This document shows, in pieces, positions 1-11,597 of a stretch of DNA of 11,597 bases. The notes under the pieces were generated by a model. The model was not told the DNA's origin. It ran no database searches and worked only from the letters and a program-made list of their open reading frames with translations. Numbering within the stretch: position 1 is the first letter of the stretch; each line of letters starts with the position of its first letter. This stretch comes from a virus (Duplodnaviria; Heunggongvirae; Uroviricota; Caudoviricetes), in IMG/VR virus record IMGVR_UViG_638341087_000009, positions 1-11,597 of that record; one strand, written 5' to 3'. The translations under genes were made by a program, and so were the position numbers.

Positions 1-478
1 ACAGAGAATCCACCCATAACACTGTTTTTGGTTTTAACTGTTCCGCGTGCGCTGAGCCGCATTCACCGCATCACAAAATTCACTTTAAAAAGGGCGGCAG
101 AGCAGCCACGGAGTAAAACTGATACCGCCAAACGTCACCAGAAAATTGATAACAGAGGGCGTTGCAGCGGGGTTGTCACTTAAGCGTATGGTCAACCTGA
201 CAACCCGGTGTCCTCAACGGGGAAGGAATAACCCCGCCATACTTACCGCCGCGCCATTTCGCGGAGTGCCACAACCGGAAGCGCACGGTCGACGAAAATT
301 TAACGACAGGCTATCTATGAACCAGCTACCTCGCCGTGCGCTTTCGCGTTATGGTCTGACTTTTCAGGGAAATATCCTTTCAGTAAACTGTCAGTGCCGG
401 ATGCTCACCCGTGTCCGGCGCACGTACTCCACCTCACCCGTGGAGAACTCCTTAATCACCAACCCTCAGGAGGGTGAA

Positions 479-8386: not shown

Positions 8387-8440
8387 TGCTGCGGGCGCTT
8401 GAGGCTGTCTGCCTCGGGCATGCCACCGTAAGGCAGACAG

Positions 8441-8512
8441 AGAAAAGCCCCAGTTAACATTACGCGTCCGGCAAGACGCTTAACATTAATCTGAGGCCAT
8501 ATCTATGCTCTA
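8441..8512 (-). ncRNA. Candidate Sok-like antisense RNA (about 70 nt)
   Basis: Weak minus-strand promoter (TTGCCT, complement of 8543-8548; 17-bp spacer; TAACCT, complement of 8520-8525). Transcript would be antisense to the mok-frame SD and ATG (8493-8507). It would end in a minus-strand hairpin (arms 8491-8497 / 8447-8453, inner stem 8464-8468 / 8475-8479) followed by UUUUCU. Structure-based inference only. Confidence 0.3.
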
Positions 8513-8561
8513 CACACGTAGGTTAGCCTCTTACGTGCCGAAAGGCAAGGAGAAGCAGGCT

Positions 8562-8717
8562 ATGAAGCAGCAAAAGGCGATGCTAATCGCCCTGATCGTC
8601 ATCTGTTTAACCGTCATAGTGACGGCACTGGTAACGAGGAAAGACCTCTGCGAGGTACGAATCCGAACCGGCCAGACGGAGGTCGCTGTCTTCACAGCTT
8701 ACGAACCTGAGGAGTAA
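8562..8717 (+). CDS. hokD: Hok/Gef-family type I toxin (51 aa), closest to HokD/RelF; in-frame Mok-like extension from ATG 8505
   Basis: MKQQKAMLIALIVICLTVIVTALVTRKDLCEVRIRTGQTEVAVFTAYEPEE is the Hok family signature (transmembrane helix plus ...TRK.LCE..IR.G..EVAAF.AYE). AAGGAG (8547-8552) lies 9 nt before ATG 8562. The upstream in-frame ATG 8505 with its own GAGG gives a 70-aa form, as in chromosomal mok genes. Confidence 0.85.
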   Translation: MKQQKAMLIALIVICLTVIVTALVTRKDLCEVRIRTGQTEVAVFTAYEPEE

Positions 8718-8785: not shown

Positions 8786-8812
8786 AACCCGCTTCGGCGG
8801 GTTTTGTTTTTT
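8786..8812 (+). terminator. Intrinsic terminator of the hok transcript
   Basis: Stem AACCCGC / GCGGGTT with TTCG loop (8786-8803), followed by TTGTTTTTT. Confidence 0.65.
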
Positions 8813-9164: not shown

Positions 9165-10211
9165 GTGCGGGTATTACTTCGACCTGTTCTGGTACCGGAA
9201 CTCGGGCTGGTGATCGTTAAGCCGGGCCGTGAATCCATGCCGGTATTCCACAATACCCGGGTACTGGTGGAGCCGGAACCGAAAAGCATGCGTAATCTGC
9301 CGTCCGGGGTCGTTCCTGCCGTTCGCCAGCCGCTGGCGGAGGATAAATCATTACTGCCATTTTTCAGCGACGAACGAGTGATTCGTGCTGCTGGTGGCGC
9401 TGGCGCATTGTCTGACTGGCTGTTGCGCCATATTAAATCCTGCCAGTGGCCACACGGCGATTATCATCACAGCGAAACCGTCATTCACCGTTATGGTACC
9501 GGCGCAATGGTGTTGTGCTGGCACTGCGACAACCAGCTGCGCGACCAGACCTCCGAATCACTGGAACATCTGGCTCAACAAAACCTGGCAGCCTGGATGA
9601 TTGACGTCATACGCCATGCAATGAATGGCTCGCAGGAGCGTGAATTATCTCTGGCTGAATTATCCTGGTGGGCGGTCCGCAATCAGGTGGCGGACGCGCT
9701 ACCGGAAGCGGTATTACGTCGTTCGCTGGGGTTGCGTGCGGAAAAAATCCGCTCAATGTACCGTGAAAGCGACATCGTACCGGGAGAGCAGACCGCCACC
9801 AGCATACTGAAGCAGCGCACAAAAAATCTTGCGCCGCTGCCTCACGCTCACCAGCAAAAACCGCCACAGGAAAAGACGGTGGTCAGCATTGCCGTTGATC
9901 CTGAGTCTCCGGAATCTTTCATGAAACGACCTAAACGTCGCCGCTGGGTTAACGAGAAATACACGCACTGGGTGAAGACACAGCCGTGTGCGTGTTGTGG
10001 TAAGCCTGCTGACGATCCGCATCACCTGATTGGTCATGGTCAGGGGGGAATGGGGACAAAATCTCACGATATTTTCACGCTACCGCTGTGTCGGGAGCAT
10101 CACAACGAGCTTCATGCGGATCCGCTGGCGTTCGAAGAAAAGCATGGTTCTCAGGTTGATTTAATTTTTCGTTTTCTTGATCACGCCTTTGCAACTGGCG
10201 TGCTTGGGTAA
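9165..10211 (+). CDS. ydfU: YdfU-like DUF968 protein (348 aa) with a Cys/His metal-binding-like C-terminus
   Basis: GTG start 4 nt after GGAGG (9156-9160). C-terminal motif ...QPCACCGKPADDPHHLIGHGQGGMGTKSHDIFTLPLCREHHNELH.... Length is close to K-12 YdfU (about 349 aa, recalled from memory). Confidence 0.7.
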   Translation: MRVLLRPVLVPELGLVIVKPGRESMPVFHNTRVLVEPEPKSMRNLPSGVVPAVRQPLAEDKSLLPFFSDERVIRAAGGAGALSDWLLRHIKSCQWPHGDYHHSETVIHRYGTGAMVLCWHCDNQLRDQTSESLEHLAQQNLAAWMIDVIRHAMNGSQERELSLAELSWWAVRNQVADALPEAVLRRSLGLRAEKIRSMYRESDIVPGEQTATSILKQRTKNLAPLPHAHQQKPPQEKTVVSIAVDPESPESFMKRPKRRRWVNEKYTHWVKTQPCACCGKPADDPHHLIGHGQGGMGTKSHDIFTLPLCREHHNELHADPLAFEEKHGSQVDLIFRFLDHAFATGVLG

Positions 10212-10223
10212 AAGAGGTGACTG

Positions 10224-10583
10224 ATGCTCATAGATTTGGTTTTACCTTACCCGCCGACGGTGAACACTTACTGGCGACGCCGTGGCAGCACATATTTTGT
10301 ATCAAAAGCCGGGGAGCGTTATCGCCGGGCTGTGGCGCTTATTGTTCGCCAGCAGCGACTGAAATTAAGCCTGTCCGGACGGCTGGCAATAAAAATTATT
10401 GCAGAGCCACCGGATAAGCGTCGTCGTGACCTGGACAATATTCTGAAAGCACCGCTGGATGCGCTGACGCATGCGGGAGTGCTCATTGATGACGAGCAGT
10501 TTGATGAAATCAATATTGTACGTGGTCAGCCAGTATCTGGTGGACGGCTGGGTGTGAAGATTTACAAAATTGAGAGTGAGTGA
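10224..10583 (+). CDS. rusA: RusA-family Holliday junction resolvase (119 aa)
   Basis: ...LPYPPTVNTYWRRRG...PPDKRRRDLDNILKAPLDALTHAGVLIDDEQ...GGRLGVKIY... matches RusA motifs recalled from memory (PPSNNRYY..., PDRRRRDLDN..K...DALT.AG...DD, GGRL). GAGGTG lies 4 nt before the ATG. Confidence 0.85.
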   Translation: MLIDLVLPYPPTVNTYWRRRGSTYFVSKAGERYRRAVALIVRQQRLKLSLSGRLAIKIIAEPPDKRRRDLDNILKAPLDALTHAGVLIDDEQFDEINIVRGQPVSGGRLGVKIYKIESE

Positions 10584-10591
10584 GCGTAAAT

Positions 10592-11122
10592 ATGATATAT
10601 CCGGAAATTACAGGCAAAAGCGGCGAACATTTACGCCTGAACACGCTGGAAGCAGTCTGGATCCAGGGGAAATTACGGATGTGGGGGCGGTGGTCGTATA
10701 TCGGTGGGGGTAAATCCGGAAATATGTTTAACCGGTTACTGGTTTCGAAAAAGCTGACGAAAACAGCAGTTAATGAGGTTTTACGCAGCATGAAGAAATC
10801 CGGGCTGGAAAAACCGGAACTTGAGGCATTTTTTCGGGATATGACCAGAGGGAAGCAGAAGAGCTGGTTGTCACATTGTACAGACACAGAGGCGTTGATT
10901 ATTGATCGCGTTATCAGTGAGGTGCTTGGGGAATATCCCGGGCTAATCAATATTCTCCGGCAAAGGTACGAAGGACGGGGAATGAGTAAGAGAAAAATGG
11001 CAGAATGTTTAAATCGTACTCACCCGGAATGGTGTTTCAGCACATGTGAGAAACGTATTGCAGGTTGGTTAGCCGTGGCTGAACACATGCTTTATGTACC
11101 TATGCACGATTCATTTCGATAA
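10592..11122 (+). CDS. Q-like late-gene antiterminator (176 aa); assignment mainly positional
   Basis: Immediately follows rusA (start 8 nt after its stop) and precedes a short terminator-bounded region, as Q does in lambdoid phages. Sequence similarity to Q families is not verified. Confidence 0.5.
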   Translation: MIYPEITGKSGEHLRLNTLEAVWIQGKLRMWGRWSYIGGGKSGNMFNRLLVSKKLTKTAVNEVLRSMKKSGLEKPELEAFFRDMTRGKQKSWLSHCTDTEALIIDRVISEVLGEYPGLINILRQRYEGRGMSKRKMAECLNRTHPEWCFSTCEKRIAGWLAVAEHMLYVPMHDSFR

Positions 11123-11129
11123 AAAAAGC

Positions 11130-11158
11130 TTGCTTTTTTACGCAGAAACAGCTTGAAT
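11130..11158 (+). promoter_or_regulatory. Candidate pR'-like late promoter
   Basis: TTGCTT (11130-11135), 17-bp spacer, TTGAAT (11153-11158), 8 nt after the Q-like stop. Weak match; placement is by analogy. Confidence 0.2.
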
Positions 11159-11216
11159 TCCTGTAAGCTTCGCAAAGCTGTATCGCGAGGCGAAATGCAA
11201 GTTTTTTCGCACAAGG

Positions 11217-11241
11217 AAGCCACCGGAAGGTGGTTTTTTTT
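11217..11241 (+). terminator. Intrinsic terminator (tR'-like)
   Basis: Stem GCCACC / GGTGG(T) with GGAA loop (11219-11233), followed by an 8-nt T run (11234-11241). Confidence 0.65.
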
Positions 11242-11364
11242 GTGTCCGTAATATACAGCAGCGCAATAAATTCGCTGGTGGTTATTAATACCGTTCTTTC
11301 AGCTTGCTGGCTTTTTCGACAAGAGTTATTGGTGTGTCACGTTAACCGAAAAAGGGAAAAAGAC

Positions 11365-11562
11365 ATGCTGAAACAGCAGGATATGACCGAAACCGCCAGA
11401 GTGGTGTTTAATGAATTAAGCGTTACCGAACCGGCGACAGTCGGGGAGGTTGCGCAGAATACTTACCTTTCACGCGAACGCTGCCAGTTAATACTGACCC
11501 AGCTTGTTATGGCGGGTCTGGCAGACTATCAGTGCGGTTGTTACAGACGCCTTCAGTCCTGA
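11365..11562 (+). CDS. Hypothetical small protein (65 aa), first gene after the tR'-like terminator
   Basis: ATG 11365 with AAGGG 8 nt upstream. The track ORF from 11230 would begin inside the terminator. Not hydrophobic, so not a holin. Confidence 0.45.
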   Translation: MLKQQDMTETARVVFNELSVTEPATVGEVAQNTYLSRERCQLILTQLVMAGLADYQCGCYRRLQS

Positions 11563-11575
11563 AGGCTTTTTATTT
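11549..11575 (+). terminator. Candidate intrinsic terminator overlapping the stop codon of the 65-aa gene
   Basis: Stem GCCTTCA / TGAAGGC with GTCC loop (11549-11566), followed by TTTTTATTT. Confidence 0.5.
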
Positions 11576-11597
11576 GTGGTGAATGGGCGGCTGGTGG

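What the first reader, a model, noticed from the sequence alone, without database searches (positions are those of the whole stretch)
11123..11245. Short terminator-bounded transcript region after the Q-like gene
Directly after the Q-like gene there is a promoter-like element and, about 85 nt downstream, a strong intrinsic terminator. In lambdoid phages this arrangement (pR', the Q-utilisation site, tR') produces a short constitutive 6S-like RNA that is extended only when Q is present. The local palindromes here (AAGCTT twice, GAATTC) do not resemble lambda qut, so the Q specificity may be distinct.
Basis: partly seen in the sequence, partly recalled or inferred. Interest (0 to 1): 0.45.

Follow-up and report, generated by a model that had tools for sequence, protein, structure and literature searches.

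The report
Prophage late promoter, pause site, terminator
The stretch after the Q-like gene is the prophage's late-gene switch: a promoter, a conserved pause signal and a strong terminator that should yield a roughly 77-base RNA unless the Q protein lets RNA polymerase read on. This is an ordinary kind of element, here belonging to a Q family whose control site has not been described.

Summary
A promoter-like pair (TTGCTT 11130-35, 17 nt, TTGAAT 11153-58) follows the Q-like gene. A strong intrinsic terminator (CCACC-GGAA-GGTGG plus T8, 11220-11241) lies about 83 nt further on.

The interpretation as a pR'/qut/tR' cassette is supported, mostly by comparison:
- **Q gene.** The upstream gene (DUF1133) is a homologue of phage 21 Q. 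A profile of 42 relatives hits PDB 6P18/6JNX at E = 2.5e-9.
- **Shared layout.** Across about 50 Enterobacterales loci the same layout recurs after this gene: -35, a 16-18 nt spacer, -10, then 4-7 nt, then a second -10-like hexamer TAnGCT (window TAAGCT 11164-69), then a terminator.
- **Pause element.** TAnGCT sits where lambda has its sigma-dependent pause element.
- **Promoter strength.** Distant relatives carry near-consensus promoters at this place. The window's own promoter matches only 7 of 12 positions.
- **Q binding site.** The promoter spacer varies together with the putative DNA-recognition helix of Q, which suggests the binding site lies there.
- **Modularity.** The terminator and the leader are exchangeable modules.

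E. coli O157:H7 Sakai prophage Sp9 carries the same element. No Rfam family matches it, and it is neither IsrK, IsrJ, StxS nor HnrS. No transcript data were available.

Verdict: a new member of a known kind, of modest interest.

The parts
10592..11122 (+). Q-like antiterminator gene (DUF1133 family, 176 aa from the ATG used in RefSeq; the mechanical ORF starts at GTG 10580)
   Evidence: Pfam DUF1133 at 1.1e-110 and PF06530 Phage_antitermQ at 35.1 bits, above the cut-off of 26. A profile of 42 relatives hits phage 21 Q (PDB 6P18, 6JNX) at E = 2.5e-9. RefSeq annotates it as a DUF1133 family protein. In Sakai Sp9 it is ECs_1778, 'phage antiterminator'.
11121..11129 (+). A-rich tract just upstream of the -35, a possible UP-like element
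   Evidence: Sequence AAAAAAAGC. A-rich sequence occupies the same place in many relatives. The function is inferred only.
11130..11135 (+). -35 hexamer TTGCTT of the proposed late promoter
   Evidence: A TTG-containing hexamer lies at a fixed distance (32-35 nt) upstream of TAnGCT in all 43 distinct relatives. It is TTGACA or TTGACT in Proteus, Providencia, Yersinia, Serratia, Xenorhabdus and Edwardsiella.
11136..11152 (+). 17-nt promoter spacer TTTTACGCAGAAACAGC, the candidate Q binding element
   Evidence: The spacer sequence class tracks the variant of the putative recognition helix of Q, while leaders reassort. T is invariant 26 nt upstream of TAnGCT whatever the register of the -35. This is inference; binding was not tested.
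11153..11158 (+). -10 hexamer TTGAAT (weak; alternative reading TGAATT 11154-59)
   Evidence: It is homologous in position to TATAGT, TAGTAT, TATGAT and TAAATT in relatives. In the window it lacks the A at position 2, so the promoter fails the scan.
11164..11169 (+). TAAGCT, a second -10-like hexamer and proposed sigma-dependent pause element. The predicted transcription start is A11165 or A11166.
   Evidence: TAnG[CA]T is present 4-7 nt after the -10 in 45 of 53 loci. Three further loci carry it in a displaced copy of the cassette, and two carry TATCCT. About 0.18 occurrences per 100 nt are expected by chance. The start is inferred from the usual 7-nt distance and was not mapped.
11167..11191 (+). 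Conserved early transcribed block, predicted 5' stem-loop GCUUCGC / GCGAGGC in the window RNA
   Evidence: MFE and centroid structure of the 77-nt RNA. The sequence block GCTTCGCRAAGYT...CGC is shared across genera. RNAalifold finds no consensus structure, and single-sequence z-scores are weak.
11213..11241 (+). Intrinsic terminator (tR'-like): extended stem 11213-24 / 11229-40, core CCACC/GGUGG, GGAA loop, U8 tract 11234-41
   Evidence: -16.4 kcal/mol, z = -5.25; structure. A terminator occupies the equivalent place in 46 of 53 related loci, with at least four unrelated hairpin sequences behind the same promoter and leader.
11365..11562 (+). First ORF behind the terminator, 65 aa, weak TrmB-like winged helix
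   Evidence: Pfam TrmB E = 0.003, below the cut-off. It is annotated as a hypothetical protein or TrmB-family regulator in phages that carry other Q genes.
11549..11576 (+). Second intrinsic terminator, directly after the 65-aa ORF
   Evidence: GCCTTCAGTCCTGAAGGC followed by TTTTTATTTG in the scan. Its role is not examined further.

Best explanation
This is the late-gene control cassette of a lambdoid prophage whose antiterminator belongs to the DUF1133 branch of the phage 21 Q family.

Proposed mechanism:
1. Host sigma-70 RNA polymerase starts at a weak promoter (TTGCTT, 17 nt, TTGAAT) at about A11165.
2. Sigma region 2 then re-binds the -10-like hexamer TAAGCT (11164-69) in the non-template strand. 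It holds the polymerase at about +15 to +17 (about 11179-11181).
3. Without Q, the polymerase escapes and stops at the hairpin and U8 terminator (11213-11241), giving an RNA of about 77 nt.
4. With Q, the protein binds DNA in the promoter spacer (11136-11152) and loads onto the paused complex. It makes the polymerase ignore this terminator and the next one (11549-76). Transcription then reaches the tRNA, lysis and structural genes downstream.

Shown here: homology of the protein to Q21; conservation of the promoter position, the TAnGCT hexamer and the terminator; and the modular exchange of parts. Inferred: the start site, the pause, the binding site and Q-dependent read-through.
For: - Q identity: Pfam PF06530 above its cut-off. 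A profile of 42 relatives hits Q21 structures 6P18/6JNX at E = 2.5e-9 over two stretches, including the N-terminal W..G.L..WG.W motif.
- Layout: 43 distinct downstream regions from about 50 species share -35 / 16-18 nt / -10 / 4-7 nt / TAnGCT. Of these, 17 pass strict promoter criteria, against 1.2% of shuffles.
- Terminator: 46 of 53 loci have one 40-115 nt after the stop codon.
- Terminator strength in the window: z = -5.25.
- Exchangeable terminators: the same promoter and leader is followed by different linkers and hairpins in the window, Sakai Sp10, L004, L013 and L014. Of 1826 E. coli records with a match, only 624 cover at least 80% of window 11123-11250. In the spread sample, most of the partial matches cover only 11123-11199.
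- Shared downstream module: phages with other Q genes share the sequence only from 11228 or 11265 onward.
- Retained when displaced: where an antirepressor module is inserted after the Q gene, the cassette is kept further downstream (L018, L146, L021).
- Late genes: holin and lysozyme lie on the same strand about 5 kb on.
- The mechanism of Q21 and of sigma-dependent pausing is taken from 10.1101/651190.
Against: - The window's own promoter is poor: 7 of 12 positions, with no A at position 2 of the -10. It was not found by the scan.
- In part of the family TAnGCT is preceded by TGn, so it could itself act as an extended -10. In the window that would put the start near 11176 and give a 66-nt RNA.
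- No transcript data were available.
- The published list of Hfq-bound RNAs of strain Sakai has no entry on the identical Sp9 element.
- The link between spacer and recognition helix could reflect plain linkage, since the two lie about 100 bp apart and in many lineages the spacer lies within the 3' end of the Q reading frame.
- The structure model of the protein was too poor to use (pLDDT 57).
Confidence: 0.8

Rival explanations
1. The region is only the terminator that ends the early-right (Q) operon. The promoter-like hexamers in this copy are an inactive relic, so no separate short transcript is made.
For: The window promoter matches 7 of 12 positions and lacks the key A of the -10. The element sits in a prophage of a type that is often defective. 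No Hfq-bound RNA is listed there in Sakai.
Against: The same weak variant (TTGAAT or TTCAAT) is kept, with TAnGCT at a fixed distance, in E. coli, Klebsiella-like and Citrobacter lineages. It occurs in more than 1800 E. coli genomes. The cassette is retained even when separated from Q by an inserted module, which a mere gene-end terminator would not explain.
Confidence: 0.1
2. Besides being a by-product of the switch, the short RNA acts in trans as a regulatory small RNA of the host, as StxS does in Shiga-toxin phages.
For: The predicted 77-nt RNA has a 5' stem-loop, a single-stranded U-rich stretch (GUUUUUUCG, 11201-09) and a terminator hairpin with a U8 tail. That is the usual layout of Hfq-binding RNAs. 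StxS sets the precedent (PMC7547250). The element is at least 99% identical in 511 E. coli records.
Against: It is not among the Hfq-crosslinked orphan RNAs of Sakai. The part behind +30 is freely exchanged between relatives, so no conserved seed is apparent. No Rfam family matches. No target was sought.
Confidence: 0.15
3. Termination is controlled by translation of an 18-codon leader ORF (ATG 11196 to TAA 11252, preceded by GAGG) that runs across the terminator hairpin.
For: The ORF and a Shine-Dalgarno-like GAGG are present in the window. A similar ORF crosses a different terminator in L014.
Against: Of the 44 distinct leaders, 17 have any ATG ORF that reaches the terminator. These ORFs share no position or peptide, and most lack a Shine-Dalgarno-like sequence.
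Confidence: 0.02

Closest known systems
Phage 21 late cassette (Q21, PR'21, Q binding element, sigma-dependent pause element, terminator)
   Same: The protein is a detectable homologue (E = 2.5e-9 to 6P18/6JNX). The order is the same: Q gene, then promoter, then a -10-like pause hexamer at the start of the transcript, then a terminator. In Q21 the binding element also lies upstream of the start site (10.1101/651190).
   Different: The relationship is detectable only with a profile: a single-sequence search gives E = 0.18, and about 40 residues of the profile are left unmatched between the two aligned stretches. The long loop of the Q21 helix-turn-[loop]-helix is absent in the alignment. No direct repeat of two 8-bp subsites is evident in the window's spacer. 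The PR'21 sequence itself could not be obtained for comparison.
Lambda pR' / qut / tR' and 6S RNA
   Same: The logic and geometry are the same. The binding site lies between -35 and -10, the -10-like pause hexamer lies right at the start of the transcript, and the terminator gives a short RNA. The distance from the -10 to the pause hexamer is 4-7 nt here and about 6 nt in lambda (from my own knowledge of the lambda sequence).
   Different: Lambda Q belongs to a different family from Q21 and Q933W, with no significant sequence or structural similarity. There is no sequence similarity in qut. The lambda RNA is much longer (about 190 nt, from my own knowledge).
StxS of Shiga-toxin phages (933W, Sp5, Sp15)
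   Same: It is a terminated late-promoter transcript behind a Q of the Q21/Q933W family. The promoter overlaps the end of the Q gene.
   Different: There is no sequence similarity. StxS is processed from a 258-nt precursor and binds Hfq. Nothing of the kind is known for this RNA.
IsrJ and IsrK of Salmonella prophage Gifsy-1
   Same: IsrJ occupies the same slot: behind the Q gene and an inserted antirepressor module, with its own promoter and terminator, ahead of the tRNA and lysis genes. The isrK-C4-antirepressor module is inserted between a DUF1133 Q and a copy of the window-type cassette in L016, L018 and L146.
   Different: The Gifsy-1 Q (AntQ, STM2617) is annotated as similar to phage 82 Q and was not found with the DUF1133 query. 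Neither isrJ nor isrK matches the window, even at E up to 10.

Membership tests
Q-dependent late-gene antitermination cassette of lambdoid phages | A Q-family antiterminator gene directly upstream | tested here: met
   PF06530 at 35.1 bits against a cut-off of 26. The profile hits Q21 chains at E = 2.5e-9.
Q-dependent late-gene antitermination cassette of lambdoid phages | A sigma-70 promoter immediately after, or overlapping, the end of the Q gene | tested here: inconclusive
   The window matches 7 of 12 positions and fails the scan. The homologous position holds near-consensus promoters in 17 of 43 relatives, against 1.2% of shuffles. Activity was not measured.
Q-dependent late-gene antitermination cassette of lambdoid phages | A -10-like element in the initially transcribed region (the sigma-dependent pause element) | tested here: met
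   TAAGCT lies at 11164-69. TAnG[CA]T lies at a fixed distance from the promoter in 45 of 53 loci. Pausing itself was not tested.
Q-dependent late-gene antitermination cassette of lambdoid phages | A Q binding element next to the pause element | tested here: inconclusive
   The spacer class co-varies with the putative recognition helix, and T is invariant at -26. Linkage is not excluded, and no binding data exist.
Q-dependent late-gene antitermination cassette of lambdoid phages | An intrinsic terminator shortly downstream, ahead of the late genes | tested here: met
   Hairpin plus U8, z = -5.25. A terminator is present in 46 of 53 loci. Holin and lysozyme lie downstream on the same strand.
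Q-dependent late-gene antitermination cassette of lambdoid phages | Read-through of the terminator that depends on Q | not testable with these tools
   This needs in vitro transcription or reporter assays.
Rfam small-RNA families isrK, isrJ, AgvB, STnc100 and others | A match to the covariance model at the gathering score | tested here: not met
   Nothing matches 11050-11400 at the gathering score. The best sub-threshold hits are 16-19 bits and unrelated.
HnrS (EcOnc10-12) of EHEC prophages | Same locus and sequence as the 66-nt RNA of Sp9, Sp10 and Sp12 | tested here: not met
   The coordinate checked, EcOnc10 in Sp12, lies between the endopeptidase (lysis) and terminase genes, on the strand opposite to the late genes. 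The listed EcOnc12 coordinate in Sp9 is about 7 kb beyond the element at 1772391-1772508. Sequences were not compared directly.

The most novel reading that the evidence does not exclude
The roughly 77-nt terminated transcript may be more than a by-product. It could be a trans-acting regulatory RNA of EHEC and other E. coli, a second StxS-like case from a different Q family. It is present nearly unchanged in hundreds of pathogenic strains. A related reading is that the early transcribed block conserved across genera (GCTTCGCRAAGYT...CGC) is part of the Q-loading signal.
Probability: 0.15. Interest if true: 0.5.

Novelty: new member of a known kind. Interest (0 to 1): 0.33.

Why it matters
Q-type antitermination decides when a prophage makes its lysis genes, its virion genes and any toxin or effector genes inserted behind the late promoter. 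Control sites have been worked out for lambda, 82, 21 and 933W. I found no published description for the DUF1133 branch. That branch is common in Enterobacterales and occurs in about a third of the complete E. coli genomes searched (1850 of 5426), including O157:H7 Sakai Sp9 and Sp10.

The comparison gives concrete, testable predictions:
- a start site at about 11165;
- a TAnGCT pause hexamer conserved across the family;
- a binding site in the promoter spacer that changes together with one helix of the protein.

If these hold, the family would be a convenient natural series for studying how Q21-type proteins read DNA. In kind, however, the element is ordinary.

Tried and rejected
- **HnrS.** The 66-nt length fits a start at 11176, so I checked whether this RNA is HnrS. 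The EcOnc10 coordinate in Sp12 lies between the lysis and terminase genes, and the listed EcOnc12 coordinate in Sp9 is about 7 kb from the element. Rejected.
- **Hfq-bound peak in Sakai.** No entry of Tree et al. Table S2 lies on the Sp9 or Sp10 copy. No supplementary text is held for the dRNA-seq/Term-seq paper. A search of the RNase E CLASH tables gave only a read identifier.
- **Structure prediction of the Q-like protein.** With 29 close homologues the model had pLDDT 57. I ran no fold search because matches would be meaningless. The sequence profile against PDB gave the answer instead.
- **Conserved RNA structure in the leader.** Individual sequences fold into a 5' hairpin. However, z-scores are mostly weaker than -2, and RNAalifold on 21 leaders finds no consensus pair. 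Not supported.
- **Leader peptide across the terminator.** Not conserved.
- **IsrK as the sister RNA of a sister Q.** I first took it that way, because isrK follows DUF1133 genes in L016 and L018. This was wrong. Gifsy-1 AntQ is annotated as similar to phage 82 Q. The isrK-C4-antirepressor unit is a mobile module also found next to ninE in Stx phages.
- **Phage 21 promoter sequence.** The papers held give it only in figures.

Full report
**What is in the window.** The window is part of a lambdoid prophage of E. coli. Positions 11050-11400 are 100% identical to E. coli 2013C-3277 and 99.7% identical to many O26, O103, O111 and O157 strains. It carries DicF (92-143, - strand) and a hok/sok locus (8393-8567). 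Next come a DUF968 gene (9165-10211), rusA (10224-10583) and a 176-180 aa DUF1133 gene ending at 11122. The gene order of these genes matches prophage Sp9 of O157:H7 Sakai (ECs_1773 and ECs_1776 to ECs_1779). The Sp9 sequence after the Q-like gene differs only by one T in the terminator U-run over the stretch of interest.

**The observation.** Read directly, the Q-like ORF stops at 11120-22. TTGCTT lies at 11130-35, followed by a 17-nt spacer and TTGAAT at 11153-58. The hairpin CCACC/GGAA/GGTGG lies at 11220-33, followed by T8 at 11234-41. The terminator is strong: -16.4 kcal/mol, z = -5.25, and none of 200 shuffles does as well. The whole of 11123-11245 folds with z = -3.9. The promoter on its own is unconvincing. 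It matches 7 of 12 positions, lacks the A at position 2 of the -10, and is not in the scan's list.

**Is the upstream gene a Q?** Pfam gives DUF1133 (1.1e-110) and also PF06530 Phage_antitermQ at 35.1 bits, above its cut-off of 26. Yin et al. assign PF06530 to the Q21/Q933W family (10.1101/651190). A single-sequence search of PDB gave only E = 0.18 to Q21. A profile of 42 relatives from many genera gave E = 2.5e-9 to Q21 chains 6P18 and 6JNX. It aligned the N-terminal W..G.L..WG.W motif and the C-terminal helix-turn-helix region. hhalign against the 933W Q gave a weak but same-region match. An AlphaFold model was too poor to use (pLDDT 57). I conclude the gene is a distant member of the Q21 lineage. 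A genomics paper reached the same label by HHpred (PMC8136144).

**Comparative anatomy.** I collected the region behind this gene from phage records, from one genome per species (51 loci) and from Sakai.
- When anchored on a recurring hexamer, 43 distinct sequences show one layout. It runs: a TTG-containing -35, 16-18 nt, a -10, then 4-7 nt, then TAnGCT (TAAGAT in two), then a partly conserved early transcribed block.
- An intrinsic terminator follows 40-115 nt after the stop codon in 46 of 53 loci.
- In Proteus, Providencia, Yersinia, Serratia, Xenorhabdus, Edwardsiella and Rouxiella the promoter is near consensus, for example TTGACT-16-TATAGT and TTGACA-16-TAGTAT.
- 17 of 43 pass the strict criteria of the scan, against 1.2% of shuffled controls.
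- In the E. coli, Citrobacter and Klebsiella-like lineages the -10 is TTGAAT, TTCAAT or T(T)AAAT(T), and weaker.
- In many lineages the stop codon of Q lies inside the -35 or the -10, as in 933W, where the annotated pR' overlaps the end of Q.

**The second hexamer.** TAnG[CA]T occurs at the expected place in 45 of 53 loci. About 0.18 occurrences per 100 nt are expected by chance. Three more loci (L018, L146, L021) have it in a displaced copy of the cassette. Two Pluralibacter loci have TATCCT in front of the same leader. The letters always kept (T1, A2, T6) are those that sigma region 2 reads most strictly in a -10 element (established knowledge). The hexamer starts 4-7 nt after the promoter -10, at about -1 to +6 of the transcript. 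That is where lambda has its pause-inducing element (my knowledge of lambda pR'). By analogy, the pause should fall about 10-11 nt beyond the hexamer, at about 11179-11181. This is inference.

**Where Q may bind.** The aligned helix that corresponds to the second helix of the Q21 DNA-binding motif comes in variants, and each goes with one class of promoter spacer:

| Helix variant | Spacer class |
|---|---|
| STCEKRI | TTTACGCA.AAAC |
| [MI]TCRRRI | GTGAGC[CA]AGAAA |
| RTCE[ST]RI | TTGCGCGG |
| RT[YCH]Q[DN]RV | TT[AG]CCGA |
| RTCCSRV | TTTGCACA |

Leaders reassort. The E. coli-type leader occurs with STCEKRI and with MTCRRRI (L025). The Klebsiella-type leader occurs with both [MI]TCRRRI and RTCE[ST]RI. 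A T is invariant 26 nt upstream of TAnGCT whether the -35 starts at -35, -34 or -32. So this part keeps register with the pause hexamer rather than with the -35. This points to a binding element in the spacer, 11136-11152 in the window, as in lambda and 21. The caveat is linkage. The helix and the spacer are about 100 bp apart, and in many lineages the spacer lies within the 3' end of the Q reading frame.

**Modularity.** Of 1826 E. coli records that match 11123-11250, only 624 cover at least 80% of it. In the spread sample, most of the partial matches cover only 11123-11194 or 11128-11199. Behind GCGAGGCGA the sequence differs between the window, Sp10, L004, L013 and L014, but each version ends in a terminator, with at least four unrelated hairpins. 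Conversely, phages with other Q genes (SfV, phiP27 and several Stx2 phages) share the window only from 11228 or 11265 onward. In SfV a different Q, its own TTGCAT-17-TAAGAT promoter and an annotated terminator precede the same 65-aa ORF. A terminator that is replaceable in sequence but always present is what a functional tR' predicts.

**Downstream.** In the identical region of strain 2013C-3277 the genes all lie on the + strand. In order they are the 65-aa ORF, an HTH gene, tRNA-Ile/Arg/Arg, terB-like, a 645-aa DUF6645 gene, holin and lysozyme. A second terminator follows the 65-aa ORF at 11549-76.

**The RNA.** From A11165 to the U-tract the RNA is 77 nt. It folds into a 5' stem-loop (11167-73 with 11185-91), an open U-rich linker and the terminator (z = -2.8). 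No Rfam family matches. A shared structure is not supported: RNAalifold finds no consensus pair in 21 leaders, and single-sequence z-scores are weak. The cross-genus conservation of the first 30 or so nt is therefore better read as a DNA or sequence-level constraint, or as shared descent.

**Relation to known prophage RNAs.**
- It is not HnrS. The EcOnc10 coordinate in Sp12 lies between the lysis and terminase genes, and EcOnc12 in Sp9 is listed about 7 kb from the element.
- It is not StxS.
- In L016, L018 and L146 an isrK-C4-antirepressor module sits between a DUF1133 Q and a copy of the window-type cassette. That module is mobile and also lies near ninE in Stx phages.
- Gifsy-1's own Q (AntQ) is annotated as similar to phage 82 Q, not DUF1133. 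I had first assumed otherwise.
- In Gifsy-1, isrJ occupies the slot equivalent to this element.

**What remains open.** The start site (11165, or 11176 if TAAGCT serves as the -10), the promoter activity of this weak variant, the pause, the binding site and the Q dependence are all untested. The Sakai Hfq-crosslinking list has no entry on the element. That argues mildly against an abundant Hfq-bound RNA, although the list excluded some true cases such as the Sp5 copy of StxS.

**Verdict.** The element is an ordinary kind of control cassette. It serves a Q family whose control site I did not find described, and it has clear testable features.

Noticed in passing
L147 (Gifsy-1, NC_010392.1) 33406-33520, - strand: The Salmonella small RNA IsrJ (Rfam RF01393, 100 bits) starts just behind a TTGCAA-17-TATATT promoter that follows the antirepressor gene, and it ends at an intrinsic terminator ahead of the tRNA and lysis genes. 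By position it looks like the terminated late-promoter transcript of Gifsy-1's phage 82-like Q.
   Followed up: partly
L016 2075-2276, L018 2088-2268, L147 34131-34329, L146 about 1650-2500: isrK overlaps the Rfam 'a1, b1 targets of C4' model and is followed by a C4 antisense RNA and an ORF6N antirepressor gene. The isrK locus therefore has the RNA parts of a phage P1 immI-type (c4/ant) unit. The unit is mobile: its boundary lies exactly at the -35 that overlaps the Q stop codon, and it also sits next to ninE in many Stx phages.
   Followed up: partly
window 11196-11252, + strand: An 18-codon ORF (MQVFSHKEATGRWFFLCP) with a GAGG four bases upstream runs across the terminator hairpin. It is not conserved in relatives.
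   Followed up: yes
window about 11497-11541, - strand (Sakai 1772764-1772808): The Hfq-crosslinking peak EcOnc49 of Tree et al. 2014 maps antisense to the 65-aa ORF, if the old and new Sakai coordinates agree. A weak terminator-like site on the - strand lies at 11378-11366.
   Followed up: no
window 92-143 (- strand) and 8393-8567 (+ strand): A full-length DicF RNA (75 bits) and a hok/sok locus (sok, 114 bits), with a strong terminator at 8786-8803 behind hok.
   Followed up: no
L144 7422-7691 and L145 7728-7982 (Sakai Sp9 and Sp10): STnc100 and the anti-GcvB RNA AgvB (or a relative) lie as a convergent pair about 2 kb (Sp9) and about 1.2 kb (Sp10) downstream of the late cassette, as described for the moron site of EHEC prophages.
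   Followed up: no
window 11123-11133 with 11197-11207: An 11-bp inverted repeat (AAAAAGCTTGC / GCAAGTTTTTT) brackets the promoter and early leader. It would form only in transcripts reading through from the Q gene (MFE). Its significance is unknown.
   Followed up: no
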